A stretch of 64,000 nucleotides of DNA. It comes from Escherichia coli. Its GTDB lineage: Bacteria; Pseudomonadota; Gammaproteobacteria; Enterobacterales; Enterobacteriaceae. The stretch is from the NCBI RefSeq assembly GCF_044324785.1, contig NZ_CP172127.1; one strand, 5' to 3'. The translations under genes were made by a program, and so were the position numbers. Below, one piece after another: positions 48,866 through 59,503 of this stretch (position 1 is its first letter; every line of letters begins with the position of its first letter). Under the pieces are notes generated by a model. That model was not told the origin of the DNA. It did no database searches and saw nothing but the letters and a program-made list of their open reading frames with translations.

Positions 48866-49107
48866 CGCGATCTCTCTTAAATAAAAATAAACGTCGCAGA
48901 TAATAAAGCCCTGATTAAACCAGGCACTATCAGAAATCGCTCATAACGAACGTGTGAAGTATTGTGTACTGGAGGGAGTTAATTTAACAATTTGAATTTA
49001 CGTTATAGGTTTTACTGCTACTTTGATATTATTTCGCTCTCCTTAACTAAAAAGTTAAGTGGAGAGCGAAGTTAATATGTTAAACCACAGGGTATTTATT
49101 AATTTTT

Positions 49108-50157
49108 TCAGTCTGTTAGTGTGCGATTATCGATAACAAAACGATATTTCACATCTCCTCGCAGCATTCGCTCATAGGCTTCATTAATTTGATCGGCCCG
49201 AATCATCTCTATATCAGCCACGATGCCATGTTCGGCGCAAAAATCGAGCATCTCCTGTGTTTCTGGAATGCCGCCAATCATAGAACCGGCTATCGCACGG
49301 CGTTTCATGATCAGGTTGAAAACTTCCGGTGATTTATGCGGTGTCGCAGGCGCACCAACCAGCGTCATGGTGCCATCACGCTTCAGCAAGGTGGTAAAAT
49401 CGTCGAGATTATGTGGCGCAGCTACTGTATTCAAAATGAAATCGAAACTCTTGAGATGAGCCGCCATCTCATCGGCATTGCGTGAGTTAACAACTTCATC
49501 GGCCCCCAGGGCTTTTGCCGCTTCGCGTTTTGCCTCAGAAGTGGTAAATGCCACCACATGCGCCCCCATCGCGTGGGCCAGCTTAATCCCCATATGTCCC
49601 AGACCGCCGATGCCAACCACGCCCACTTTTTTACCCGGCCCGGCCTGCCAGTGACGTAGCGGCGAGTATGTGGTGATCCCTGCACACAATAAAGGAGCCA
49701 CCGCCGCCAGCTGCTCTTGCGGGTGACGAATACGCAGAACATATCGCTCATGAACGACGATCTGTTGTGAGTAGCCGCCCAGCGTATGGCCCGGTTCGTC
49801 CGGCGTCGGCGAGTTATAGGTGCCGGTCATGTGATCACAGTAGTTTTCCAGCCCGTCTTCACACTCTTCGCAATGTTTACAACTGTCGACAATACAGCCG
49901 ACACCGACCAGATCGCCCGGCGCATATTTTTCTACCTGATCACCAACGGCTACCACGCGCCCTACAATTTCATGGCCCGGCACGCAGGGATAAACCGTCC
50001 CCGCCCACTCGGAACGGACCTGGTGGAGATCGGAATGGCAGACGCCACAGTAAGCGATTTCGATTTTGACATCATTCGGTCCCGGTTCACGCCGGGTGAT
50101 ATCCATCGGTTCAAGTGGTTGTTTAGCGGAATATGCACCAACAGCTTTGATCTTCAT
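49108..50157 (-). CDS. yahK: NADPH-dependent aldehyde reductase (zinc-type ADH), 349 aa
   Basis: Motifs GHEIVG and GVVGIGGLGH. Confidence 0.9.
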   Translation of the reverse strand: MKIKAVGAYSAKQPLEPMDITRREPGPNDVKIEIAYCGVCHSDLHQVRSEWAGTVYPCVPGHEIVGRVVAVGDQVEKYAPGDLVGVGCIVDSCKHCEECEDGLENYCDHMTGTYNSPTPDEPGHTLGGYSQQIVVHERYVLRIRHPQEQLAAVAPLLCAGITTYSPLRHWQAGPGKKVGVVGIGGLGHMGIKLAHAMGAHVVAFTTSEAKREAAKALGADEVVNSRNADEMAAHLKSFDFILNTVAAPHNLDDFTTLLKRDGTMTLVGAPATPHKSPEVFNLIMKRRAIAGSMIGGIPETQEMLDFCAEHGIVADIEMIRADQINEAYERMLRGDVKYRFVIDNRTLTD

Positions 50158-50243
50158 TGTGTTTACTCCTGATTAGCTATGTGTATTTGGCGACGCCTGA
50201 TATGTCATCGCGGCAAAACGCGTCCATTGAATATAGCCAATAT

Positions 50244-51230
50244 TTAAACCACCCGATCCAGCCCCAACATGCCGCGAGCCTGAATGAAACAGAGCAGCAA
50301 CGTTCCCCATAAGGCCATCGTCAGGTAGGGGCTTATACCGAGAATATTGAAGCCGCTTTCAATAATTTGCAGAAGAAACAGCGCCAGCACCATACCAATT
50401 ATCCGCCCGCTGCCGCCGTCCGGATTAACCCCGCCGAGTACTGCCGCGAGGATTGACACCAGCAAGTACGATTCGCCATAAGAGGCCTTAGCCGAGTTGA
50501 GTTTCGACATCATCAAAAATGCCGCTACCGCACAAAGCAAGGCGGAAATGACATACACCCATATCAGCACCCGACGAGTGTTAATACCGGAGTAAAGTGT
50601 TGCTCGTTCGTTAGAACCAATCAGATAAATGGCTTTACCGAGCGGCGTTTTCTCCAGCAATATCCACAGTCCCAGCGCCACTGCGGTAAACAACCACATC
50701 GGTAGCGGAATACCGAACCACTGTGCATGATTCAACCACAGCACCCATGAGGGATAATTGGCAATGGCGCTACCACCTGTCACCAGAATATTTATCCCTT
50801 TGAGCAACGTCATCATCCCAAGCGTTGCAAGAATTGGCGACACTCGAATACCAGCAATCAATACGCCGTTACATAAACCGATTATCACCGCCGCGCCAGC
50901 GCCCGCCAGTAACGTAGCGACAACCGTAGCAATACCCGGTGGATACTGAGTCGCCACCCACGCCATCACCAGTGAACAGGCGTTAGCAGTGGCTATAATT
51001 GACAAGTTAATGCCACCGCAAAGCATGGTCACCGCCATAGCCAACGCCAGAATGCCCAGCACGGGCATTTGCGAAGCGACGGACTGGAAATTACTTATCG
51101 ACCAGAAAATCTCCGGCATAGTAATGCTGAAGGCGGCAACAGTTAGCACCAGCAGGCCGATCAAGTAAAACTCAACGTTATTACGCCACGATTTTTTCAT
51201 AGCAGACTCCGGTTCTGATGCTGACTCCAC
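50244..51230 (-). CDS. Sugar-type ABC transporter permease (RbsC/LsrD-like), 328 aa
   Basis: Polytopic hydrophobic protein of the monosaccharide-permease type; overlaps the upstream permease by 34 nt. Confidence 0.75.
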   Translation of the reverse strand: MESASEPESAMKKSWRNNVEFYLIGLLVLTVAAFSITMPEIFWSISNFQSVASQMPVLGILALAMAVTMLCGGINLSIIATANACSLVMAWVATQYPPGIATVVATLLAGAGAAVIIGLCNGVLIAGIRVSPILATLGMMTLLKGINILVTGGSAIANYPSWVLWLNHAQWFGIPLPMWLFTAVALGLWILLEKTPLGKAIYLIGSNERATLYSGINTRRVLIWVYVISALLCAVAAFLMMSKLNSAKASYGESYLLVSILAAVLGGVNPDGGSGRIIGMVLALFLLQIIESGFNILGISPYLTMALWGTLLLCFIQARGMLGLDRVV

Positions 51231-52168
51231 GCCGTGGCGCTAATGCTGGCAACGATGATGATGCCGGTGATCAATGTTTGCCAGTAAGACGAGACTCCCA
51301 ATAAATTTAGCCCGTTTTGCATTACTGCCAACAACACCACGCCGAGCAAAGTACCGGTTAACGTGCCGCGCCCGCCGAGCAAACTAGTGCCGCCAAGCAC
51401 CACCGCAGCCAGTACTGTCAGCTCATAACCCAGAAGAGAATCGGGGGCGACAGTCATCACCGTCCACGACTGCACTACACCCGCAGCACCAGACATCAAT
51501 CCCATATAGCCGTAGACGAAAAGTTGCAGTTTCAGCACGCTAAAGCCGATGCGACTGGCTGATTCACGGTTCCCGCCAAGGGCATAAATTTTGCGCCCTA
51601 CACTGGTGAAATTCATGATAAACGCTGTTAGCAGCACCACCGTAATCATGGCGATCAGCGGTAGACCAAGGCCATAGTCATAGCCATCAGCATCGGTGTA
51701 CTTGAACAACATTACCCCCTGCTCAAACCACGGCGGAAAGTCGTACAGCCACACACCTTTACTCAACCATAACAGCAGGCCATAGAAAATATTCAGCGTC
51801 GAGATAGTGATGATGATAGAAGGCACCCGTAGGCGATTAACCAGTAAGGCGTTTATTAAGCCAAGTAAAATGCCGATGCCGCCCGCCAGTGCAAACGCGA
51901 CAGCGAAGTTGCCACCAATTTTTTGCAGCAACAGCACCATGCCGTATTGCGCAATGATGGTCATTGCCGGAAACGAAATATCAATTCCACCGGAAATCAA
52001 CACCACAAACAAACCACAGGCGAGAATAGTCAACATGGCATAGTTATTGGCGAGATCGTACAAATTACCGAATGTCAGAAACTCGTCGCTGCGCCAGGCA
52101 AGGCCGACAAACAGCCCCACAATCAGTAATGCCAGCCAGAATTCATGACGTTTTTTCAGTTCAGCCAT
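51197..52168 (-). CDS. Sugar-type ABC transporter permease (RbsC/LsrC-like), 323 aa
   Basis: Polytopic hydrophobic protein; 8-nt overlap with the ATPase gene. Confidence 0.75.
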   Translation of the reverse strand: MAELKKRHEFWLALLIVGLFVGLAWRSDEFLTFGNLYDLANNYAMLTILACGLFVVLISGGIDISFPAMTIIAQYGMVLLLQKIGGNFAVAFALAGGIGILLGLINALLVNRLRVPSIIITISTLNIFYGLLLWLSKGVWLYDFPPWFEQGVMLFKYTDADGYDYGLGLPLIAMITVVLLTAFIMNFTSVGRKIYALGGNRESASRIGFSVLKLQLFVYGYMGLMSGAAGVVQSWTVMTVAPDSLLGYELTVLAAVVLGGTSLLGGRGTLTGTLLGVVLLAVMQNGLNLLGVSSYWQTLITGIIIVASISATAWSQHQNRSLL

Positions 52169-53660
52169 TTACCACCTCCGCAATCCTGGCCTGAGAACTG
52201 CTGTCAGGCAGGAAGCTATGGGTGATCTGACCTTTCTGCATTACCAAAATCCGGTGGCTTTGATACCACGCTTCTTCAATTTCATCGCAGATCATCAATA
52301 CCGCAATGCCATGAGCCGCCAGATCGCTGATAATGCCGTATATTCCTGCTTTGTTGGCGATATCAACACCGACTGTCGGGCTATCGAGAATCAACAGTCG
52401 TGGCCCAATCGCCAGCCATTTGGCGATCGATACTCGCTGCGCGTTACCCCCGGAAAGCGTACTCACCGGGAGATGTGGGTCAGAGACTTTGATGGTCAAT
52501 GCCTTGATTAGCCTGTCCACCAGGTCACGCACTTTAGCTTCACTCAGAAAGCCGAAGCGATCTTTTACCTTGTGAAAAACAGTGCTAATGATGTTGTCTT
52601 CAATAGATTGCGCCATCACCAAACCGCGCGACATGCGATCTTCCGAAACATAACCAATACCGTGGCGGATGGCGTCCTGGTTACTATGCAGTGTAACCGG
52701 CTGACCGTTGATGAGGATCTCACCAGCATCCGGTCGGGTCATACCAAACAGACTCAGACATAATTCCGTGCGCCCCGCACCAAGCAGGCCAACAATCGAC
52801 ACCACTTCGCCCGCTTCCACCCGCAAGTTAATATTTTGATATTCCCCATGACGACTTAAATTACGCACCTCCAGCACTGGGGTGCTGGATTTTCCCTGCC
52901 ACAACTCTCGTACCTGATATTCGAACTCCTGGCCGGTCATCAGAAAACTGAGTTGTTTTGTGGTCATCTCTGCGGCCGGAAAGGTCCCGACCAGCTCACC
53001 ATCTTTCAGCACTGAAATACGGTCGGAAACTTCCATCACTTCTTCCAGACGATGACTGACGAAGACCACGCAGATCCCGCGTTCCCGCAATTGATGCACC
53101 ACCTGTAATAACCCTTGCACTTCCTGATGGGTCAGCGAAGCGGTTGGTTCATCCATCACGATCAACCGTGCGTCCTGCGCCAGTGCACGGCAAATTGCCA
53201 CCAGCTGACAGCGGGCAATTGAAAGCTCAGAAACGAGCGTATCCAGAGGCAATGTGACGTTAATACTGGTCATTGCCGCCTGCGCCACCTCACGCAGACG
53301 ACGTCGGTTAACAAACAGACCGTGGTGATAGTGATTCACGGCGATATTCTCCCAGACACTCAGGTTAGGAAATAAAGAGAGGTCCTGATAAATCACCTGA
53401 ATCCCCTGCGCCACCGAAGCGGCGGGTGTCAGCTTTGACCAGTTTTTCCCACCAAGCGTAATTTCCGCCCCCTCATCCGGGCGATAAACACCGGACATAA
53501 TTTTAATCAACGTCGATTTACCACAGCCGTTTTGCCCGGCAAGGCAGTGCACCTCACCCGACATAAAGTCGAGAGAAACATCGCGCAGCGCTCGCGTGGC
53601 ATGAAACGTTTTGTTGATATGACGAAGGGAAAGGAAGGTTTCCATAGCATCCCCTGGCAA
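52161..53660 (-). CDS. Two-domain ABC transporter ATP-binding protein (RbsA/LsrA-like), 499 aa
   Basis: Two Walker A motifs (GQNGCGKST and GLLGAGRTE) and signature LSGGNAQRV. Confidence 0.85.
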   Translation of the reverse strand: MPGDAMETFLSLRHINKTFHATRALRDVSLDFMSGEVHCLAGQNGCGKSTLIKIMSGVYRPDEGAEITLGGKNWSKLTPAASVAQGIQVIYQDLSLFPNLSVWENIAVNHYHHGLFVNRRRLREVAQAAMTSINVTLPLDTLVSELSIARCQLVAICRALAQDARLIVMDEPTASLTHQEVQGLLQVVHQLRERGICVVFVSHRLEEVMEVSDRISVLKDGELVGTFPAAEMTTKQLSFLMTGQEFEYQVRELWQGKSSTPVLEVRNLSRHGEYQNINLRVEAGEVVSIVGLLGAGRTELCLSLFGMTRPDAGEILINGQPVTLHSNQDAIRHGIGYVSEDRMSRGLVMAQSIEDNIISTVFHKVKDRFGFLSEAKVRDLVDRLIKALTIKVSDPHLPVSTLSGGNAQRVSIAKWLAIGPRLLILDSPTVGVDIANKAGIYGIISDLAAHGIAVLMICDEIEEAWYQSHRILVMQKGQITHSFLPDSSSQARIAEVVNG

Positions 53661-53693
53661 TAAGAATCGGGGCTTTCGCCCCGAAGAAATGGA

Positions 53694-54680
53694 TTAATAA
53701 AGTGAGTCGATATTGTCTTTGTTGACCAGTAATACCTTATGGAAACGGATAATTCGCTTATCCATATCTACGTCGGCCTTACCGAGATTCTCCATTTCTA
53801 ATCCAGGTTTGATCTCTTCACCCTTCAGCAACGTGCTGGCGACGGCCGCGAGTGCGTAACCTGCAGAGGCCGGATCGTAAGTAATCCCTTCGGTGATATC
53901 ACCACTTTTAATCAGTGATGCCGCCTGTGAAGGGATCATCATGCCATAGACTGCGACTTTATTTTTCGCCCGTTTCTCTTTCACTGCACGTCCCGCGCCA
54001 ATCGGACCGTTTGAACCAAAGGAGACAACCGCTTTCAAGTCAGGATAGGTTTTCATGAGGTCCAGTGTGGTACGACGTGAGTCATCCACACTCTCGGCAA
54101 CCGGCATGCGGCGGGTAACTTCATGCATATCCGGGTAATGCTCTTTCTGGTATTTCACCAGCAAGTCAGCCCATAAGTTATGCTGCGGCACGGTCAAACT
54201 ACCCACGTAAATCACATAGCCGCCCTTGCCACCCATGCGTTTCGCCATATGCTCAACATATTCAGCGGCAAATTTTTCGTTATCAATGATTTCGATATCC
54301 CAGTTAGCACTTGGCTGACCGGGGGATTCGTTGGTCAGAACCACAATTCCGGCATCTCGCGCTTTTTTGAATACCGGTTCCAGCACGTTGGCATCGTTTG
54401 GCACAATTGTAATTGCATTAACCTTACGGGCGATTAAATCCTCAATAATTTTAACTTGTTGCGGAGCATCAGTACTTGAAGGCCCCACCTGTGACGCATT
54501 AACACCAAAGGCTTTACCCGCCTCAACCACACCTTCGCCCATGCGATTAAACCACGGCATACCATCGACTTTAGAGATATTCACCACGACTTTTTCCGCT
54601 GCCTGGAGCGGCGCAGAAATTAGCGCAGCGCCTAATAACAGCGAAGACACCATATTGATAACAAAACGTTTATTCATCAT
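53694..54680 (-). CDS. Periplasmic sugar-binding protein (LsrB/RbsB-type), 328 aa
   Basis: Signal peptide MMNKRFVINMVSSLLLGAALISAPLQA; C-terminus …FHKVLLVNKDNIDSLY resembles the LsrB C-terminus as I recall it. Confidence 0.7.
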   Translation of the reverse strand: MMNKRFVINMVSSLLLGAALISAPLQAAEKVVVNISKVDGMPWFNRMGEGVVEAGKAFGVNASQVGPSSTDAPQQVKIIEDLIARKVNAITIVPNDANVLEPVFKKARDAGIVVLTNESPGQPSANWDIEIIDNEKFAAEYVEHMAKRMGGKGGYVIYVGSLTVPQHNLWADLLVKYQKEHYPDMHEVTRRMPVAESVDDSRRTTLDLMKTYPDLKAVVSFGSNGPIGAGRAVKEKRAKNKVAVYGMMIPSQAASLIKSGDITEGITYDPASAGYALAAVASTLLKGEEIKPGLEMENLGKADVDMDKRIIRFHKVLLVNKDNIDSLY

Positions 54681-54930
54681 TTCAGCCTCATTGCAGGGTA
54701 GTCAGGAAGTGTTCGCCCAAATTAGCGCGCTGGAGAGAATAAGAATTTTCGAATATTTTTATGCAGAATAAACAGCCCTATTTCAGGCAGCTATTAAAAA
54801 TTTGGTTATAAATATGGACAAAACGGGCAGCAATAATAAGTGTGACACTCATCACGTAAAAAATAGCAAAATAAACAAAATTAGCGATATTTTATGTTTG
54901 TGAGCTTATTTCGCGTAGAAAAATAGTTAT

Positions 54931-55341
54931 CTACACAACGTCAATAAGGGCATATTCTTCAAAGATAACGTCCATTTCGGGTGAATAGCATCCTTCTGCC
55001 TGGAAAAAACGACGGTGTTCATTACGCCAATATTCAAGACTGAGGTCACCTTCACCTTCCTTACGGGCAAGCTCCGCGGTGACATCAGAAAAGCGCAGTA
55101 AATGCAGGCCAATCACTCTGATAACACAGACAGGCTCACCACGGCTATTTTCTACAATCTTATACTCACCAATCATCGGAAATGCGTTGTCTTCAATACA
55201 TCCCGCCAGCGAACCACAGGAAGCTGTTTTAACACCTGTCGCAATCAACGTTGCGAGGTGATCGGCCAACGCTGCTGAATCGCCAAAAGTACAAAAGGAA
55301 GCATGGGGATATTTTTGTGAGATTTTTTCTTTTATGGTCAT
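54931..55341 (-). CDS. Small cytoplasmic protein, possible ASCH/PUA-like domain, about 136 aa
   Basis: Segment TGVKTASCGSL resembles the ASCH G-x-K-T motif; start (55341 versus 55374) uncertain. Confidence 0.45.
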   Translation of the reverse strand: MTIKEKISQKYPHASFCTFGDSAALADHLATLIATGVKTASCGSLAGCIEDNAFPMIGEYKIVENSRGEPVCVIRVIGLHLLRFSDVTAELARKEGEGDLSLEYWRNEHRRFFQAEGCYSPEMDVIFEEYALIDVV

Positions 55342-55637
55342 GAGAATATTTTCGCGATTACGGAAAAAAATCACATCTTAATTACTGTAGATAACCATCA
55401 GCAAGAGGATCATTGGTTTTCCTATGTTTAATCTTTTTTATCCGAAGCAGGTCACATTTATGGCTTGATAAATACCTTTGTTAAAACTCACTTTTGTGTA
55501 TTTCTCTCAAATAATCCCCTGGAAATTATGCCGGGAGATTATAAAGTTCAGGATCATTCATTAACAAACCATTCCCGCCCCACTCCCTGGGGCTTAAATC
55601 TCTTACGATTCACCGTTGCAGACATATCAAATGCGCA

Positions 55638-57020
55638 TCAACCTGCCACACTCCCCCACACCAGTTGCCCTTTATGGAACGTCGCCGTTCTCGGCGAGAT
55701 ACGCGCCACCGCCTCGGCGGAACAGGAGGCGTCCACCAGCACAAAGCTGGCGTCATCCTGCGCTTTAGGCCACACACGCTCGCCTTTTTCGTTGAGCGGC
55801 AATACATCGCCAGTGGCTAAAAACAGCGAACGGGAGAGGTTCTGTTCGTTAGGACGAATATAGAGCTGCGCGTAGAGATTGGCTTTTTCCAGCATGTCGC
55901 CCAGGCCGTAAGGCGACCAGTGGTCGATAACGCTGTCGGTGCCGGTCATCACTTTTACGCCTTTGTCGTGCAGTTGTTTAAGCGGCATATGTAGCGTGCC
56001 GATCGGCACCGTCGAGGCGATAGAAATTTGCTGCGCCGCCATCCGGTGCGCCAGTTCATCTACCTGTTGCTCATTGAGCGTTGCCAACGCAAAGGCGTGA
56101 CTGATGGTCAGCTTGCCCTTCAGTTGCGGCGTTTTCTCCACTGTTTCAACCATATAATTGATGGCCGCCACGCCTGCCGGAGTGGTTTCATGCAGGTGAA
56201 TATCGACGCCTTTGTCGTAGTCCAGCGCAATCTGGAACATGGTGTCGAGGGATTTTTCCATCGCGCCATCAACACTGGTTGGGTCCAGCCCGCCGACGTA
56301 ATGCGCCCCTGCCTGCATCGCTTCGCGCATTAAGGGTTCCGATTTCGACAGCAGCAAACCGTGCTGCGGGAAGGCGACGATTTCACACTCGAAGCCCGCC
56401 TGACGTCGCGCCAGCACCGCCTGCAAATTTTGCAGATTTTTCAGGCCGGAAACCGGTTCGATATTGCAGTGGCTGCGGGCAATGGTAGTGCCTTTCGACT
56501 GCAATAAATCGATCAGTTTTTCCGCCCTTTCCTGAGTGTACGGTTGCAACTCCGGCAGCATTTTCTGCTCGAGTTTGATCATGTCCTGGATGGTGGTGCC
56601 TGCCGGGCGATTGAGCGAGCGCCACGGCCCGCCGTAAAAGGTTTTGTCGAGATGAATATGCATGTCGCGGGTGGTGGGCAGCATCAGCTTACCGCCAGCG
56701 TCATAGTGCGGCAGCGTGGCGTCCGGATGCTGCTTGTTCTCGCGCAGGGCAACAATTTTGCCGTTCTGAATCTCTACGGTCTGGTGCGCCGTGCGGGTCT
56801 GTACCGCCACACCGTTTTCGTAGTCAAAACCGGTTTCCAGCAGCACGTTGTCGAGATAGTAGTGCGGGTCAGTGATTTTCATGGTGTTATTCGCGTCGCA
56901 GTTTAGGGTGCCAGAGACTGCCGCATGGGCGAGCGGCACAGAGGTACCAAACAGCGCGGCGGCGGTGACCATCTTACCGCTCTGGCTCAGAAACTCACGG
57001 CGGCTATTGTTTTTTTTCAT
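55638..57020 (-). CDS. yahJ: Amidohydrolase-superfamily deaminase with Tat signal peptide, 460 aa
   Basis: Twin-arginine motif SRREFLSQ followed by a hydrophobic stretch and AHA; metal-dependent hydrolase features (HIHLDKT, HLHE). Confidence 0.85.
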   Translation of the reverse strand: MKKNNSRREFLSQSGKMVTAAALFGTSVPLAHAAVSGTLNCDANNTMKITDPHYYLDNVLLETGFDYENGVAVQTRTAHQTVEIQNGKIVALRENKQHPDATLPHYDAGGKLMLPTTRDMHIHLDKTFYGGPWRSLNRPAGTTIQDMIKLEQKMLPELQPYTQERAEKLIDLLQSKGTTIARSHCNIEPVSGLKNLQNLQAVLARRQAGFECEIVAFPQHGLLLSKSEPLMREAMQAGAHYVGGLDPTSVDGAMEKSLDTMFQIALDYDKGVDIHLHETTPAGVAAINYMVETVEKTPQLKGKLTISHAFALATLNEQQVDELAHRMAAQQISIASTVPIGTLHMPLKQLHDKGVKVMTGTDSVIDHWSPYGLGDMLEKANLYAQLYIRPNEQNLSRSLFLATGDVLPLNEKGERVWPKAQDDASFVLVDASCSAEAVARISPRTATFHKGQLVWGSVAG

Positions 57021-57029
57021 CTTACGTCC

Positions 57030-57980
57030 TTACGTTTTAATAATATGTGTGCCTGTTTCGCCGCGCAGCGCCGCAGGCAGGCATTCCGGCGTGGTGATAA
57101 TCACTTCTTTGCCGCCCTGCTCCAGGAACGTCAGGCTGGCGATGATTTTTGGCAACATGCTGCCAGGCGGGAAATGCCCTTCCTGCATATAGCGGGTCAT
57201 GGTGGCAATATCCACCCGATCCAGCGCCTGCTGCTGCGGCTTGCCAAAGTGAATACACACTTTTTCGACGCCGGTGGTGATCACCAGAATGTCGGCGTGA
57301 ATTTCACGGGCCAATAGCGCGGTAGAGAGATCTTTGTCGATAACCGCGTCCACGCTTTGGTAATCCCCCGCTTCACTGCACACCACCGGAATTCCACCGC
57401 CGCCCGCGCCAATCACCACAAAACCTTGTTGGATCAGCGCCTTAATGGCAGGTGCTTCGACAATACGTTTCGGTTCCGGCGAGGCGACCACGCGGCGATA
57501 GCCCCGTCCGGCATCTTCAACAAAACGCCAGTCAGGATTTGCCTTTTGTAATTCGTCACGCTGGCTGTCACTAAAGAATGCGCCGATGGGCTTGGTGGGA
57601 TGAGCAAATCCCGGATCGTTTTTATCCACTTCCACCTGAGTCACCACGGTGACGGCTTTTTTCTCGCCGTGACGCGCCAGCCGGTTGTTCAGCGCCTGTT
57701 GGATCAGATAGCCAATGCCGCCTTGCGTATCCGCCACACAGTTCGCCAGCGGCGTTAAGGGCAGCCCTTCGCGCTCGTGGGCAATCTCCGCGCGGCGTAA
57801 ATCCAAACCGACCTGCGGCCCGTTGCCGTGGGTCAGCACAATGTCGTAATCGGAAGCCAGCATTTCCAGCACCGTATCGGCCACGGCTTTCACCGCCTCC
57901 GCCTGATGCTCAATCGACTGGCTGGCGTTATCTTTGATAATGCTGTTGCCACCAATGGCAACGACCACAAGTTCTTTCAT
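57030..57980 (-). CDS. yahI: Carbamate kinase-like protein, 316 aa
   Basis: Amino-acid-kinase fold motifs (VVAIGGNS, ITHGNGPQVG). Confidence 0.85.
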   Translation of the reverse strand: MKELVVVAIGGNSIIKDNASQSIEHQAEAVKAVADTVLEMLASDYDIVLTHGNGPQVGLDLRRAEIAHEREGLPLTPLANCVADTQGGIGYLIQQALNNRLARHGEKKAVTVVTQVEVDKNDPGFAHPTKPIGAFFSDSQRDELQKANPDWRFVEDAGRGYRRVVASPEPKRIVEAPAIKALIQQGFVVIGAGGGGIPVVCSEAGDYQSVDAVIDKDLSTALLAREIHADILVITTGVEKVCIHFGKPQQQALDRVDIATMTRYMQEGHFPPGSMLPKIIASLTFLEQGGKEVIITTPECLPAALRGETGTHIIKT

Positions 57981-58028
57981 GTTGTTATGTCCGCTACAGA
58001 GGGTGATGGGGTTATGACCAACGCCAGA

Positions 58029-58204
58029 CTGCCTGATGCGCTACGCTTATCAGGCCTAGAATTCTCGTGCCATTCGTAGGCCGGATAAGGCGTTCACGCC
58101 GCATCCGGCAATGGTGACAAATGCCTGATGCGCTACGCTTATCAGGCCTACAGATTCTCGCGCCACTCGTAGGCCGGATAAGGCGTTCACGCCGCATCCG
58201 GCAA
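58029..58204. repeat. BIME: tandem pair of about 95-bp units, each with two REP sequences
   Basis: Two near-identical units containing GCCTGATGCGCTACGCTTATCAGGCCTA and GTAGGCCGGATAAGGCGTTCACGCCGCATCCGGCA. Confidence 0.85.
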
Positions 58205-58225
58205 AGACAACGCGCACTTTGCAGG

Positions 58226-59503
58226 TCAGACGCCGTAACGTTCGCACCAGCCAAGAATGGCTTTTTCGAAGCAGGCGAATGGTGGATGCACAATGCCCGC
58301 GCCAATCATGCCGATGCCCGCATCTTTATGAGCGATGGCGGTGTTGATCACTGGCAGAATGCCGCTACTGCCCACGCGGGTGATGTCGATTGCCGACGGC
58401 ACGCCCATAAAACCGAGCAGCGGAATGGTGACGTTGGGGTTTTCGCCGAGAGTGATTTCGCGCATCTGACGGGAGAAATCGATAGCTTCTTCCACCGTAC
58501 CGCCCACCAGCGCGACGATTGCAGGCGCGGTCGCCATAGCAAATCCGCCAATACCGTAGGTTTCGGTGATGGCACTGTCGCCAATATCCAATCCAGAATC
58601 TTCCGGCTTATAACCGGCAAACATCGGGCCGATCACCTGCTGCGCCGGACCGGAGAAGTAGTCGCTGCTGGCGACAAACTCAAACACTTCGCGCTGTTGC
58701 TCGACGGAATAGCCCGCCTGAATAATCCCCGGCGTCAGCGCCTGAATCAGCAACGTAGTCCCGGCGTTATTGCGGTTATGGCATTCATCGCCCATATGCA
58801 GCGCCTGCGCCAGCATCAAGCGCAGATCGATCTCGCCGATAATTTTCATTGCGTCACGCAGCATTGGCCCCTGCACATCGCGCATCCAGTTGAGGCGGTC
58901 AATCACGCTCTGGTCGTTAGCGCCCATACGCAAAATCTTCGCCATCTGCTCGCTCATGTTGGTATAAGCGATGTTGCCGTAGGTTTTGTTTTTTACGATG
59001 TGCATAAACATCGAGGCCGAGGTAACACCCGCCATCGATCCCACACAGTCGTGTTCGTGGCACGGCGAGAAGGTGATCTCCCCGGAGGCCGCCAGGTCAG
59101 CCGCCTCGTCGAGATCTTTCGCCAGTCCTTCGAACACCAGCGCTCCGGTGACCGCGCCTTTCATCGCGCCGCACATTTTTTCCCAGGTGATCGGCGGCCC
59201 GGCGTGAAGAATGGTTTTCGGCGTCATGCCCGGCACCACGTTAATCGCCTGATCAAAACCAATCAGCACCGGATGTGACTGAATAATGCGCTCCAGAGCC
59301 TGCTGATTAGCGGCGGCGATTTTGTCTGCCAGCGGCGAATCGGCAATGTTATCCAGCGCCTGCACCACCTGCATATTGCCCTGCCCCGGCGGCGTCCAGT
59401 CGAGTTGGGTCACTTCTACATGCTGCTTTTTCAGGTCATCGCTAAACATGGCGATGCCGACGTTAATAACGTTCAACGGTTGGCTAAACAGTGACTGGCT
59501 CAT
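58226..59503 (-). CDS. yahG: DUF1116-family protein YahG, 425 aa
   Basis: Start ATG overlaps the yahF stop (ATGA); I recall the K-12 protein as longer, so the N-terminus is uncertain. Confidence 0.75.
   Translation of the reverse strand: MSQSLFSQPLNVINVGIAMFSDDLKKQHVEVTQLDWTPPGQGNMQVVQALDNIADSPLADKIAAANQQALERIIQSHPVLIGFDQAINVVPGMTPKTILHAGPPITWEKMCGAMKGAVTGALVFEGLAKDLDEAADLAASGEITFSPCHEHDCVGSMAGVTSASMFMHIVKNKTYGNIAYTNMSEQMAKILRMGANDQSVIDRLNWMRDVQGPMLRDAMKIIGEIDLRLMLAQALHMGDECHNRNNAGTTLLIQALTPGIIQAGYSVEQQREVFEFVASSDYFSGPAQQVIGPMFAGYKPEDSGLDIGDSAITETYGIGGFAMATAPAIVALVGGTVEEAIDFSRQMREITLGENPNVTIPLLGFMGVPSAIDITRVGSSGILPVINTAIAHKDAGIGMIGAGIVHPPFACFEKAILGWCERYGV

What the first reader, a model, noticed from the sequence alone, without database searches (positions are those of the whole stretch)
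50158..55637. About 5.4 kb between yahK and yahJ carries a sugar-type ABC importer plus an ASCH-like gene, absent from K-12 as I recall
In K-12, yahJ and yahK are adjacent genes (consecutive b-numbers, a few hundred bp apart). Here they are separated by a co-oriented operon encoding a periplasmic binding protein (LsrB/RbsB-like), a tandem-domain ATPase and two permeases, followed by a small ASCH-like protein. Being embedded in the yah catabolic cluster, it is a candidate importer for that pathway's unknown substrate.
Basis: partly seen in the sequence, partly recalled or inferred. Interest (0 to 1): 0.6.

Follow-up and report, generated by a model that had tools for sequence, protein, structure and literature searches.

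The report
Known Aau pentose importer; K-12 deleted it
The extra 5.5 kb between yahK and yahJ is the already characterised Aau sugar importer of E. coli (D-ribulose and L-arabinose, switched on by AraC) plus a small ASCH gene of unknown function; K-12 lacks both because it deleted them, and the transporter has nothing detectable to do with the neighbouring yah genes.

Summary
Observation confirmed. yahK (49108-50157) and yahJ (55638-57020) are 5,480 bp apart here and 376 bp apart in K-12.

The interval holds an ASCH-domain gene followed by an intact four-gene ABC importer operon, all on the minus strand.

The importer is already known. Its binding protein is 326/328 identical to AauA of EHEC (PDB 9I1M, solved with D-ribulose). 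This is the Aau system (Z0415-9, O-island 17) of Cottam et al. 2024 and 2025. It is AraC- and L-arabinose-induced, binds D-ribulose at 2 µM, and is needed for gut fitness.

- **Not an insertion.** K-12's 376-bp gap still encodes the last 23 codons of aauD and the last 15 codons of the ASCH gene, so it is a two-step deletion scar. About 2,800 of 5,426 complete genomes carry the scar and about 2,200 carry the long allele.
- **No link to the yah pathway.** Aau orthologues in about 55 other species never sit beside yah genes. Some sit beside araC-araBAD or a pentulose kinase.

Possibly beyond the two Aau papers I read: the promoter has a P_BAD-like CRP-araI1-araI2 layout that is conserved across genera.

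The ASCH gene's function remains unknown. Interest is low.

The parts
53694..54680 (-). aauA, the periplasmic substrate-binding protein (328 aa; Sec signal ending ...PLQA/AEK)
   Evidence: 326/328 identical to PDB 9I1M (EHEC AauA with D-ribulose) and 93% identical to Klebsiella 3D02. Pfam Peripla_BP_4, E 6e-63. All six published ligand-contact residues (K37, W43, E118, H167, E196, S223) are present.
52161..53645 (-). aauB, the tandem-domain ABC ATPase (494 aa from the PGAP start; the longest ORF starts at 53660)
   Evidence: NCBIfam hits to AraG, YtfR, XylG and RbsA at E 1e-112 to 1e-127, all below the equivalog cut-offs. My pattern scan found a Walker A at residue 37, an LSGG at 397 and LIVMDE at 161. 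Intact at codon 87, where O157:H7 F6294 has a stop.
51197..52168 (-). aauC, permease 1 (323 aa); overlaps aauB by 8 bp
   Evidence: NCBIfam hits to AraH and RbsC at E 1e-43 to 1e-45. 85-94% identical to orthologues in Klebsiella, Franconibacter and Mangrovibacter.
50244..51200 (-). aauD, permease 2 (318 aa from the PGAP start; the longest ORF starts at 51230)
   Evidence: NCBIfam hits to RbsC, AraH and LsrD at E 1e-42 to 1e-48. Its last 72 bp survive in K-12.
53667..53684 (-). GC-rich hairpin between aauA and aauB (TCGGGGCGAAAGCCCCGA followed by a T-rich tail)
   Evidence: Terminator-like site in the scan. A role in raising binding-protein expression relative to the membrane components is inference only.
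54765..54856 (-). P_aau, a P_BAD-like promoter: CRP-like CGTGA-N6-TCACA (54856-54841), araI1-like TGCCCGTTTTGTCCATA (54829-54813), araI2-like TAACCAAATTTTTAATA (54808-54792), and -10 TATTCT (54770-54765)
   Evidence: Tandem AraC half-site pair at 21-bp register. The same layout lies upstream of aauA in nearly all 58 Aau-orthologue loci but in none of 22 Rbl-like loci. The CRP core, the TCCATAT box and the I2 bases are invariant in a 9-genome alignment with 48% mean column identity. AraC dependence of about 300 bp upstream of aauA was shown experimentally (PMC11127945).
54931..55341 (-). ASCH-domain gene (136 aa; YhfF/COG4405 type), a stand-alone gene of unknown function
   Evidence: Pfam ASCH, E 1e-21. 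PDB 1T62 and 3S9X at E 6e-19 and 4e-17, both uncharacterised. No NCBIfam family. Present in 2,213 genomes, essentially the same number as carry aau. Homologues at 50-65% identity in Yersinia, Kosakonia and Pseudenterobacter lie in unrelated contexts.
55538..55567 (-). Promoter-like site upstream of the ASCH gene (TTGTTA, 18 nt, TATAAT; 10 of 12)
   Evidence: Consensus scan only; the number of such sites in the region equals chance expectation.
50316..54908 (.). Segment removed by deletion 1 in K-12-type genomes and in Escherichia sp. E2593 (aauA, aauB, aauC, most of aauD and the promoter), replaced by about 60 bp of filler
   Evidence: blastn of the K-12 spacer and of E2593 against the window. 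The two scars align contiguously through the filler at 85% identity.
54979..55576 (.). Segment removed by deletion 2 in K-12-type genomes only (the 5' part of the ASCH gene and its upstream region), replaced by 24 bp of filler
   Evidence: E2593 keeps this segment and an intact ASCH gene.
49108..50157 (-). yahK (NADPH-dependent aldehyde reductase), the flanking gene 86 bp downstream of aauD
   Evidence: The simple scan found no terminator between aauD and yahK.
55638..57020 (-). yahJ (amidohydrolase), the flanking gene and last gene of the yahD-J cluster
   Evidence: NCBIfam PRK06846 at 716 bits, above its cut-off of 447; annotation.

Best explanation
The segment holds two independent units.

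**1. aauABCD, the known accessory arabinose uptake system (Z0415-9, O-island 17).**
- It is a CUT2-type ABC importer.
- Periplasmic AauA captures D-ribulose with high affinity and L-arabinose with low affinity.
- AauA delivers the sugar to the AauC/AauD permease pair. The tandem ATPase AauB powers transport. (These steps are inferred from the general mechanism of CUT2 importers.)
- Transcription starts from a P_BAD-like promoter that AraC with L-arabinose activates, probably together with CRP.
- Imported D-ribulose is phosphorylated by AraC-induced AraB and enters the pentose phosphate pathway.

**2. A stand-alone ASCH-domain gene of unknown function upstream of the operon.**

The arrangement yahJ-ASCH-aauABCD-yahK is the older state in Escherichia. 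K-12-type genomes carry a two-step deletion scar. The position next to the yah genes reflects chromosomal history, not shared function.

**Shown experimentally by others:** ligand binding, the crystal structure, AraC dependence, the AraB step and gut fitness.
**Shown here:** identity to AauA, the deletion scar, the lack of yah synteny in other genera, and the conserved CRP/araI layout.
**Inferred:** direct AraC and CRP binding at the mapped sites, and the order of the two deletions.
For: **Identity**
- AauA is 326/328 identical to 9I1M.
- All six published contact residues are kept.
- The four genes are intact, with overlapping stop and start codons.

**Published function**
- PMC11127945 and PMC12307932.

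**Promoter**
- Tandem araI-like half-sites at 54829-54792.
- Nearly all 58 Aau-orthologue loci have an araI-like tandem site with 2-7 mismatches out of 20 specified positions. The 22 Rbl-like loci have 6-10 mismatches.
- The CRP core, araI1 and araI2 are invariant in the cross-genus alignment.

**Deletion rather than insertion**
- The K-12 spacer retains window 50244-50315 (aauD 3' end, 99% identical) and 54931-54978 (ASCH 3' end).
- PGAP itself marks the aauD fragment as a partial pseudogene in BL21.
- Escherichia sp. E2593 has an intact ASCH gene plus the same aau deletion junction.
- L031 has aauABCD plus an ASCH 3' remnant fused next to pdeL.
- There are no flanking repeats or mobility genes, and GC content is 48-53% across aau.

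**Independence from yah**
- No yahF, G, I, J or K and no adjacent ASCH gene lies beside aau in any non-Escherichia locus. The only other ASCH hit is 45% identical and about 10 kb away, in L082.
- In Providencia the neighbours are araC-araBAD, all above their NCBIfam cut-offs. In Actinobacillus the gene downstream is an FGGY-type sugar kinase (weak XylB hit, below cut-off).
Against: - No transport or binding assay exists for this particular allele. It differs from 9I1M at two positions (D201 and E298 here, V and Q there).
- Direct AraC and CRP binding at the mapped sites is a sequence inference. The window's own half-sites have 2 and 3 mismatches, and about 1.5 such pairs are expected by chance per 64 kb.
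- The approximately 63-bp and 24-bp fillers in the K-12 scar have no identified origin, so the deletion events were not clean.
- The simple scan found no terminator between aauD and yahK, so read-through into yahK cannot be excluded.
Confidence: 0.93

Rival explanations
1. One reading: the transporter imports the unknown substrate of the yahD-J pathway in which it is embedded.
For: - Physical position between yahJ and yahK, in the same orientation.
- The simple scan found no terminator after yahJ or after the ASCH gene.
- The yah cluster has no assigned substrate. YahE, YahF and YahG match the Pfam families AllH, AllF and AllG, which are named after the allFGH oxamic transcarbamylase (PMC11326118). 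They sit with a carbamate-kinase-like gene and an amidohydrolase.
Against: - AauA binds D-ribulose and L-arabinose, and the operon responds only to L-arabinose through AraC (PMC11127945, PMC12307932).
- It has its own P_BAD-like promoter, conserved across genera.
- Orthologues in about 55 other species are never next to yah genes.
- 2,803 E. coli genomes keep the yah genes without aau.
- L031 keeps aau without yahB-yahJ.
- A pathway built on a transcarbamylase-like complex, a carbamate kinase and an amidohydrolase points to a ureido or carbamoyl compound, not to a substrate expected for a CUT2 pentose transporter (inference).
Confidence: 0.03
2. An autoinducer-2 (LsrB-type) importer, as the RefSeq product name 'autoinducer 2 ABC transporter substrate-binding protein' suggests.
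For: - PGAP product name.
- Distant homology to LsrB structures (5GTA, 3T95 and 1TJY, E 1e-21 to 1e-24).
Against: - The NCBIfam LsrB model scores 111 bits against a cut-off of 384.
- Only 1 of the 6 AI-2-contact residues of LsrB is kept. K35 is kept; D116 becomes E, D166 becomes Q, Q167 becomes H, P220 becomes F and A222 becomes S (alignment to 5GTA). The residue list is from my memory of Pereira et al. 2009, and all six residues are present at those numbers in 5GTA.
- No kinase, regulator or other processing gene is annotated adjacent.
- A crystal structure with D-ribulose exists (PMC12307932).
Confidence: 0.01
3. A horizontally acquired island, as the term O-island and the published wording imply: the segment was inserted into the lineage of this strain after it separated from K-12-like lineages.
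For: - Patchy distribution across E. coli. The literature reports enrichment in phylogroups B1, E and D.
- Absent from the top hits for other Escherichia species representatives in the genome scan.
- The closest non-Escherichia orthologues (Klebsiella and Franconibacter, 92%) sit in different contexts.
Against: - Gene remnants of both aauD and the ASCH gene lie in the 'empty' site.
- The same scar is found in a non-coli Escherichia.
- A third, independent deletion variant still carries aau next to yahK (L031).
- No integrase, tRNA, IS element or flanking repeat is present.
- Base composition is native-like.
- An older acquisition by an Escherichia ancestor is not excluded.
Confidence: 0.08

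Closest known systems
Aau (AauABCD; Z0415-Z0419, O-island 17) of EHEC O157:H7. Cottam et al., Nat Commun 2024 (PMC11127945) and 2025 (PMC12307932); PDB 9I1M
   Same: - The same locus: the O157:H7 genome F6294 has the same yahK / four transporter genes / ASCH / yahJ order.
- The same gene order within the operon.
- AauA is 326/328 identical and keeps all ligand-contact residues.
   Different: - The ATPase gene is intact here. In TUV93-0 and O157:H7 F6294 it carries Q87*.
- There are two AauA substitutions away from the binding site.
- The strain is nearest to N3 and EAEC 042, not to O157.
- Neither paper contains the terms 'yah' or 'ASCH' in its text, and the 2024 paper contains no 'remnant'. 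I saw no promoter site map in the passages I read.
Rbl (ROD_24811-61) D-ribulose utilisation locus of Citrobacter rodentium
   Same: - A CUT2 importer with about 60% identical subunits that binds the same sugar.
- Represented here by loci L061-L082 (58-61% AauA identity).
   Different: - Rbl carries its own FGGY pentulose kinase and a KpsF-like isomerase (L063).
- Its upstream regions lack the araI-like tandem site.
- Aau has no dedicated kinase and relies on AraC and AraB.
The araBAD promoter (P_BAD) and the AraC regulon transporters AraFGH and AraE
   Same: - CRP site, then araI1, a 4-bp spacer, then araI2 abutting the -35 region.
- Induced by L-arabinose through AraC.
   Different: - The half-sites are more degenerate in E. 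coli (2 and 3 mismatches to TAGC-N7-TCCATA).
- No araO2-type distal operator was looked for.
- The substrate preference is D-ribulose rather than L-arabinose.
LsrACDB autoinducer-2 importer
   Same: The same transporter class and binding-protein fold, and the same gene types.
   Different: - The binding-site residues differ at 5 of 6 positions.
- It scores below the family cut-off.
- No kinase, regulator or other processing gene is annotated adjacent.
- The ligand is different.
YhfF-type ASCH-domain proteins (PDB 1T62 from Enterococcus faecalis; 3S9X)
   Same: The ASCH fold family. The window protein aligns over most of its length (E 6e-19 and 4e-17).
   Different: None of these has an assigned function. 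The only ASCH enzyme I recall as characterised in E. coli is YqfB, an N4-acylcytidine amidohydrolase, and it was not compared here.

Membership tests
Aau (AauABCD) D-ribulose/L-arabinose ABC importer | Binding protein orthologous to AauA (PDB 9I1M) | tested here: met
   326/328 identical over the full length, E 1e-213.
Aau (AauABCD) D-ribulose/L-arabinose ABC importer | Ligand-contact residues K37, W43, E118, H167, E196 and S223 | tested here: met
   All six are present at the same positions. The residue list comes from PMC12307932.
Aau (AauABCD) D-ribulose/L-arabinose ABC importer | Operon of a binding protein, a tandem ATPase and two permeases at the yahJ/yahK site (O-island 17) | tested here: met
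   ORFs and overlaps. O157:H7 F6294 has the same layout.
Aau (AauABCD) D-ribulose/L-arabinose ABC importer | AraC- and L-arabinose-dependent promoter | tested here: inconclusive
   A conserved araI-like tandem site and a CRP site lie in the 300 bp that the published reporter used. Binding and induction cannot be measured with these tools.
Aau (AauABCD) D-ribulose/L-arabinose ABC importer | D-ribulose transport activity | not testable with these tools
   Needs uptake or growth assays. All four genes are intact, including codon 87 of aauB.
LsrB-type autoinducer-2 receptor/importer | Score above the NCBIfam LsrB equivalog cut-off | tested here: not met
   111 bits against a cut-off of 384.
LsrB-type autoinducer-2 receptor/importer | Six AI-2-contact residues K35, D116, D166, Q167, P220 and A222 | tested here: not met
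   Only K35 is kept; the others are E, Q, H, F and S in the alignment to 5GTA. The residue list is from memory, but it matches the 5GTA sequence at those numbers.
LsrB-type autoinducer-2 receptor/importer | Adjacent lsrK, lsrR, lsrF and lsrG genes | tested here: not met
   The neighbours are the ASCH gene, yahJ and yahK.
RhaS rhamnose, RbsB ribose and AlsB allose binding proteins | Score above the NCBIfam equivalog cut-off | tested here: not met
   RhaS 137 against 342, RbsB 46 against 337, AlsB 50 against 335.
CUT2 family of sugar ABC importers (TC 3.A.1.2) | Peripla_BP_4 binding protein, a single-polypeptide tandem ATPase, and RbsC/AraH-type permeases | tested here: met
   Pfam PF13407, E 6e-63. 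ATPase hits to AraG, XylG and RbsA over residues 5-495. Permease hits to RbsC and AraH at E 1e-43 to 1e-48.
ASCH domain (PF04266) | Pfam domain match | tested here: met
   E 1.1e-21 over residues 38-144 of the 147-aa ORF, covering model positions 5-102 of 103.
Genomic island acquired by horizontal transfer | A clean empty site in genomes that lack it, plus mobility genes, flanking repeats or atypical composition | tested here: not met
   The empty site holds remnants of two genes. There are no flanking repeats and no integrase or IS ORFs. GC content is 48-53% across aau.

The most novel reading that the evidence does not exclude
'O-island 17' is not a gain by EHEC. It is the ancestral Escherichia arrangement.
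- The K-12-type allele is an old two-step deletion whose first step is shared with a non-coli Escherichia (E2593). That makes it a presence/absence polymorphism that crosses species lines.
- Aau is an ancient member of the AraC/CRP regulon, conserved from Vibrio and Pasteurellaceae to E. coli. It is not a foreign transporter that was later wired into AraC control.
- As a weaker add-on, the ASCH gene may be a separate accessory of yahJ rather than of aau.
Probability: 0.6. Interest if true: 0.3.

Novelty: already known. Interest (0 to 1): 0.15.

Why it matters
The transporter matters for gut colonisation by pathogenic E. coli, but that has already been published. This re-examination adds three modest points.
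- It corrects the direction of the event: loss in K-12-type strains, not gain. This bears on how the reported aau-LEE association is read.
- It gives a sequence-level map of a P_BAD-like promoter, conserved across several families, which predicts direct AraC and CRP control.
- It shows that the RefSeq product name 'autoinducer 2 ... binding protein' is misleading.

It also removes a tempting but unsupported link between this importer and the orphan yah pathway.

Tried and rejected
- **NCBIfam scan of the ASCH protein:** no family found.
- **Context of ASCH homologues** in Yersinia canariae, Kosakonia cowanii and Pseudenterobacter: no conserved neighbour that suggests a function.
- **Origin of the ~63-bp and 24-bp fillers in the K-12 scar:** no significant match in the window. 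A local alignment to the ASCH-aauA spacer scored no better than shuffles.
- **Flanking direct or inverted repeats that would mark a mobile element:** only short chance-level matches.
- **Rfam scan of 49000-58500:** nothing in the finding's interval; only naRNA4 in the REP spacer.
- **Consensus promoter and terminator scan:** counts equal chance expectation, so individual sites are weak evidence.
- **Literature search on yahJ, yahK and ABC transporter:** found nothing relevant. The link to Aau came through the PDB sequence match.
- **Considered and rejected:** an AI-2 importer, a rhamnose, ribose or allose importer, and an importer for the yah pathway (see the rival explanations and the membership test).

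Full report
**1. What is there**

The window is E. coli DNA in the reverse orientation relative to K-12. The gene order is prpR, yahO, yahN, yahL, yahK, then the extra segment, then yahJ, yahI, the REP/yahH spacer, yahG and yahF.

The extra segment, 50158-55637, is exactly the yahK-yahJ spacer and is 5,480 bp long. On the minus strand, in transcription order, it holds:
- a 136-aa ASCH-domain gene at 54931-55341 (Pfam PF04266, E 1e-21)
- a 250-bp AT-rich spacer
- four tightly packed genes: a periplasmic binding protein (53694-54680), a tandem ABC ATPase (52161-53645) and two permeases (51197-52168 and 50244-51200)

In K-12 MG1655 the same two genes are 376 bp apart.

**2. Identity of the transporter**

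The binding protein is 326/328 identical to PDB 9I1M and 93% identical to a Klebsiella structural-genomics entry, 3D02.

9I1M is AauA of EHEC, crystallised with D-ribulose (PMC12307932). The locus is the Aau system, Z0415-Z0419 on O-island 17 (PMC11127945). The published findings are:
- It is induced only by L-arabinose, and induction requires AraC.
- AauA binds D-ribulose with a Kd of 2 µM and L-arabinose with a Kd of about 600 µM.
- Imported D-ribulose is phosphorylated by AraB.

All six published contact residues (K37, W43, E118, H167, E196, S223) are present in the window protein.

The ATPase is intact here. In O157:H7 F6294 it carries Q87*. The 2024 paper reports a premature stop at position 259 in TUV93-0, which fits codon 87 if that position is a nucleotide number.

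The transporter is therefore already known and characterised.

**3. It is not an LsrB, RbsB or RhaS orthologue**

RefSeq calls the binding protein 'autoinducer 2 ABC transporter substrate-binding protein'.
- The NCBIfam LsrB model scores 111 bits against a cut-off of 384. RhaS scores 137 against 342, and RbsB 46 against 337.
- In the alignment to E. coli LsrB (5GTA), only K35 of the six AI-2-contact residues is kept.
- No kinase, regulator or other processing gene is annotated adjacent.

**4. Deletion in K-12, not insertion here**

The K-12 spacer aligns to three pieces of the window:
- 50008-50315 at 99% identity, which includes the last 72 bp of aauD
- 54909-54978, which covers the last 48 bp of the ASCH gene plus 22 bp downstream
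- 55577 onward

Translated, the K-12 spacer reads ALWGTLLLCFIQARGMLGLDRVV*. This is identical to the window AauD C-terminus and conserved in Klebsiella and Mangrovibacter AauD. It also reads EMDIIFEEYALIDVV*, the ASCH C-terminus. PGAP itself annotates the aauD fragment as a partial pseudogene in BL21.

K-12 is therefore a scar of two deletions, covering window 50316-54908 and 54979-55576. Each was replaced by short filler of unknown origin, about 63 bp and 24 bp.

Two other Escherichia variants support this reading:
- Escherichia sp. E2593 has yahJ, an intact ASCH gene, about 57 bp of filler, the aauD remnant and then yahK. Its junction aligns contiguously with the K-12 scar.
- A divergent 'E. 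coli' (L031, about 90% DNA identity) has pdeL, an ASCH 3' remnant, aauABCD and then yahK. It has lost yahB-yahJ instead.

There are no flanking repeats, integrase genes or IS elements, and GC content across aau is 48-53%.

In 5,426 complete genomes, 2,803 carry the scar and about 2,205-2,213 carry the long allele. The ASCH gene and aau are almost always present or absent together. The published description as 'horizontally acquired' is not supported at the level of E. coli. An older acquisition by an Escherichia ancestor cannot be excluded.

**5. No functional tie to the yah cluster**

A scan of one genome per species found aauABCD orthologues at 65-92% AauA identity in:
- Klebsiella pneumoniae, Franconibacter, Mangrovibacter, Symbiopectobacterium and Aeromonas
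- Yersinia, Providencia, Budvicia and Limnobaculum
- Pasteurellaceae and Vibrio

It also found a 58-61% group that corresponds to the C. rodentium Rbl type.

tblastn with YahF, YahG, YahI, YahJ, YahK and the ASCH protein found none of them adjacent to aau in any non-Escherichia locus. The only other ASCH hit, in L082, is 45% identical and about 10 kb away.

The neighbours elsewhere are mixed. Where they are informative they point to pentose metabolism:
- araC-araBAD in Providencia, all above their NCBIfam cut-offs
- an FGGY-type sugar kinase in Actinobacillus (weak XylB hit, below its cut-off)
- an FGGY pentulose kinase plus a KpsF-like isomerase in the Rbl group

The yah genes themselves match the Pfam families AllH, AllF and AllG, named after the allFGH oxamic transcarbamylase. 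They sit with a carbamate-kinase-like gene and an amidohydrolase (PMC11326118). This suggests a ureido or carbamoyl substrate rather than a pentose.

**6. Promoter**

The spacer upstream of aauA contains, on the coding strand:
- CGTGA-N6-TCACA at 54856-54841, a CRP-like site
- TGCCCGTTTTGTCCATA at 54829-54813
- a 4-bp spacer
- TAACCAAATTTTTAATA at 54808-54792
- TATTCT at 54770-54765

This is the CRP-araI1-araI2 layout of P_BAD. The P_BAD layout is recalled from established knowledge.

On its own the pair is weak. It has 2 and 3 mismatches, and about 1.5 such pairs are expected by chance in the whole window. The comparative evidence is much stronger:
- Nearly all 58 Aau-type loci have an araI-like tandem site in the same place with 2-7 mismatches, often 0-2 in araI1.
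- The 22 Rbl-type loci score 6-10 mismatches, which is background.
- In a 9-genome alignment with only 48% mean column identity, the invariant columns cluster on the CRP core, the TCCATAT box, the araI2 bases, a few positions near the proposed -10 and the ribosome-binding site.

The published reporter used about 300 bp upstream of aauA, which includes these sites. I saw no such map in the passages I read of the two papers.

**7. The ASCH gene**

It belongs to the YhfF/COG4405 type of ASCH proteins. The closest structures, 1T62 and 3S9X, are uncharacterised.
- It co-occurs with aau in E. coli.
- It persists without aau in E2593. It also follows yahJ in a second divergent Escherichia contig (L091, protein 88% identical). 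That contig ends just after the gene, so the presence or absence of aau there cannot be read.
- It was partly lost while aau persisted in L031.
- Homologues at 50-65% identity elsewhere are stand-alone genes in unrelated contexts.

I treat it as an independent small gene. My best guess from the domain family is a small-molecule or nucleoside amidohydrolase, or an RNA-binding protein. Confidence in that guess is low.

**8. Verdict**

The transporter annotation and its absence from K-12 are right. The insertion reading and the yah-importer hypothesis are not supported.

The system is already known. What remains of possible interest is the direction of the event, the conserved AraC/CRP promoter and the uncharacterised ASCH gene.

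Noticed in passing
window 58226-59503 (yahG), junction near 58643-58653: yahG here is 425 aa instead of 472. An in-frame 141-bp deletion removes K-12 YahG residues 285-331, and an 11-bp repeat sits at the junction. Every best-matching complete genome, including the nearest strains N3 and 042, has the full-length gene.
   Followed up: partly
window 58079-58148 (+): Rfam naRNA4 (RF02564; 78 bits against a gathering score of 59.5) lies in the REP-rich yahI-yahG spacer. The 'yahH' ORFs there translate REP-like repeats.
   Followed up: no
L090 3682-5166 (O157:H7 F6294 aauB): The ATPase gene carries Q87* and PGAP marks it as a pseudogene. This fits the premature stop 'at position 259' reported for TUV93-0 if that number is a nucleotide position. 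The window allele is intact.
   Followed up: yes
L001 8509-8884 (K-12 yahJ-yahK spacer): The deletion scar contains about 63 bp and 24 bp of filler with no match in the window. The longer filler is shared at about 85% identity with Escherichia sp. E2593. Its origin is unknown.
   Followed up: partly
L031 8468-14437: A divergent 'E. coli' (SCPM-O-B-8794, about 90% DNA identity) has pdeL joined to an ASCH 3' remnant followed by aauABCD and yahK. The whole yahB-yahJ block is missing.
   Followed up: partly
window 56920-57020 (YahJ N-terminus): YahJ starts MKKNNSRREFLSQSG...PLAHA, which looks like a twin-arginine export signal. That would place this amidohydrolase in the periplasm.
   Followed up: no
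L003 (SFEK01000152.1): A 4.7-kb contig binned as a 'Bacteroidales' MAG encodes Aau proteins 99-100% identical to those of the window. This is probably binning contamination.
   Followed up: no
window 53694-54680, with the RefSeq annotation in L002 and L090: PGAP names AauA 'autoinducer 2 ABC transporter substrate-binding protein', although it fails the LsrB cut-off and keeps only 1 of 6 AI-2-contact residues.
   Followed up: yes
window 53646-53693: The match to the nearest strain, N3, spans one base fewer than the query. Comparing gene coordinates places the difference in the aauA-aauB spacer, next to the GC-rich hairpin at 53667-53684.
   Followed up: no
L085 7843-8736 and L092 3641-4519: A DUF6998 gene lies within about 2 kb of the ASCH homologue in both Yersinia canariae and Pseudenterobacter timonensis. 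This could be coincidence or a weak association.
   Followed up: no
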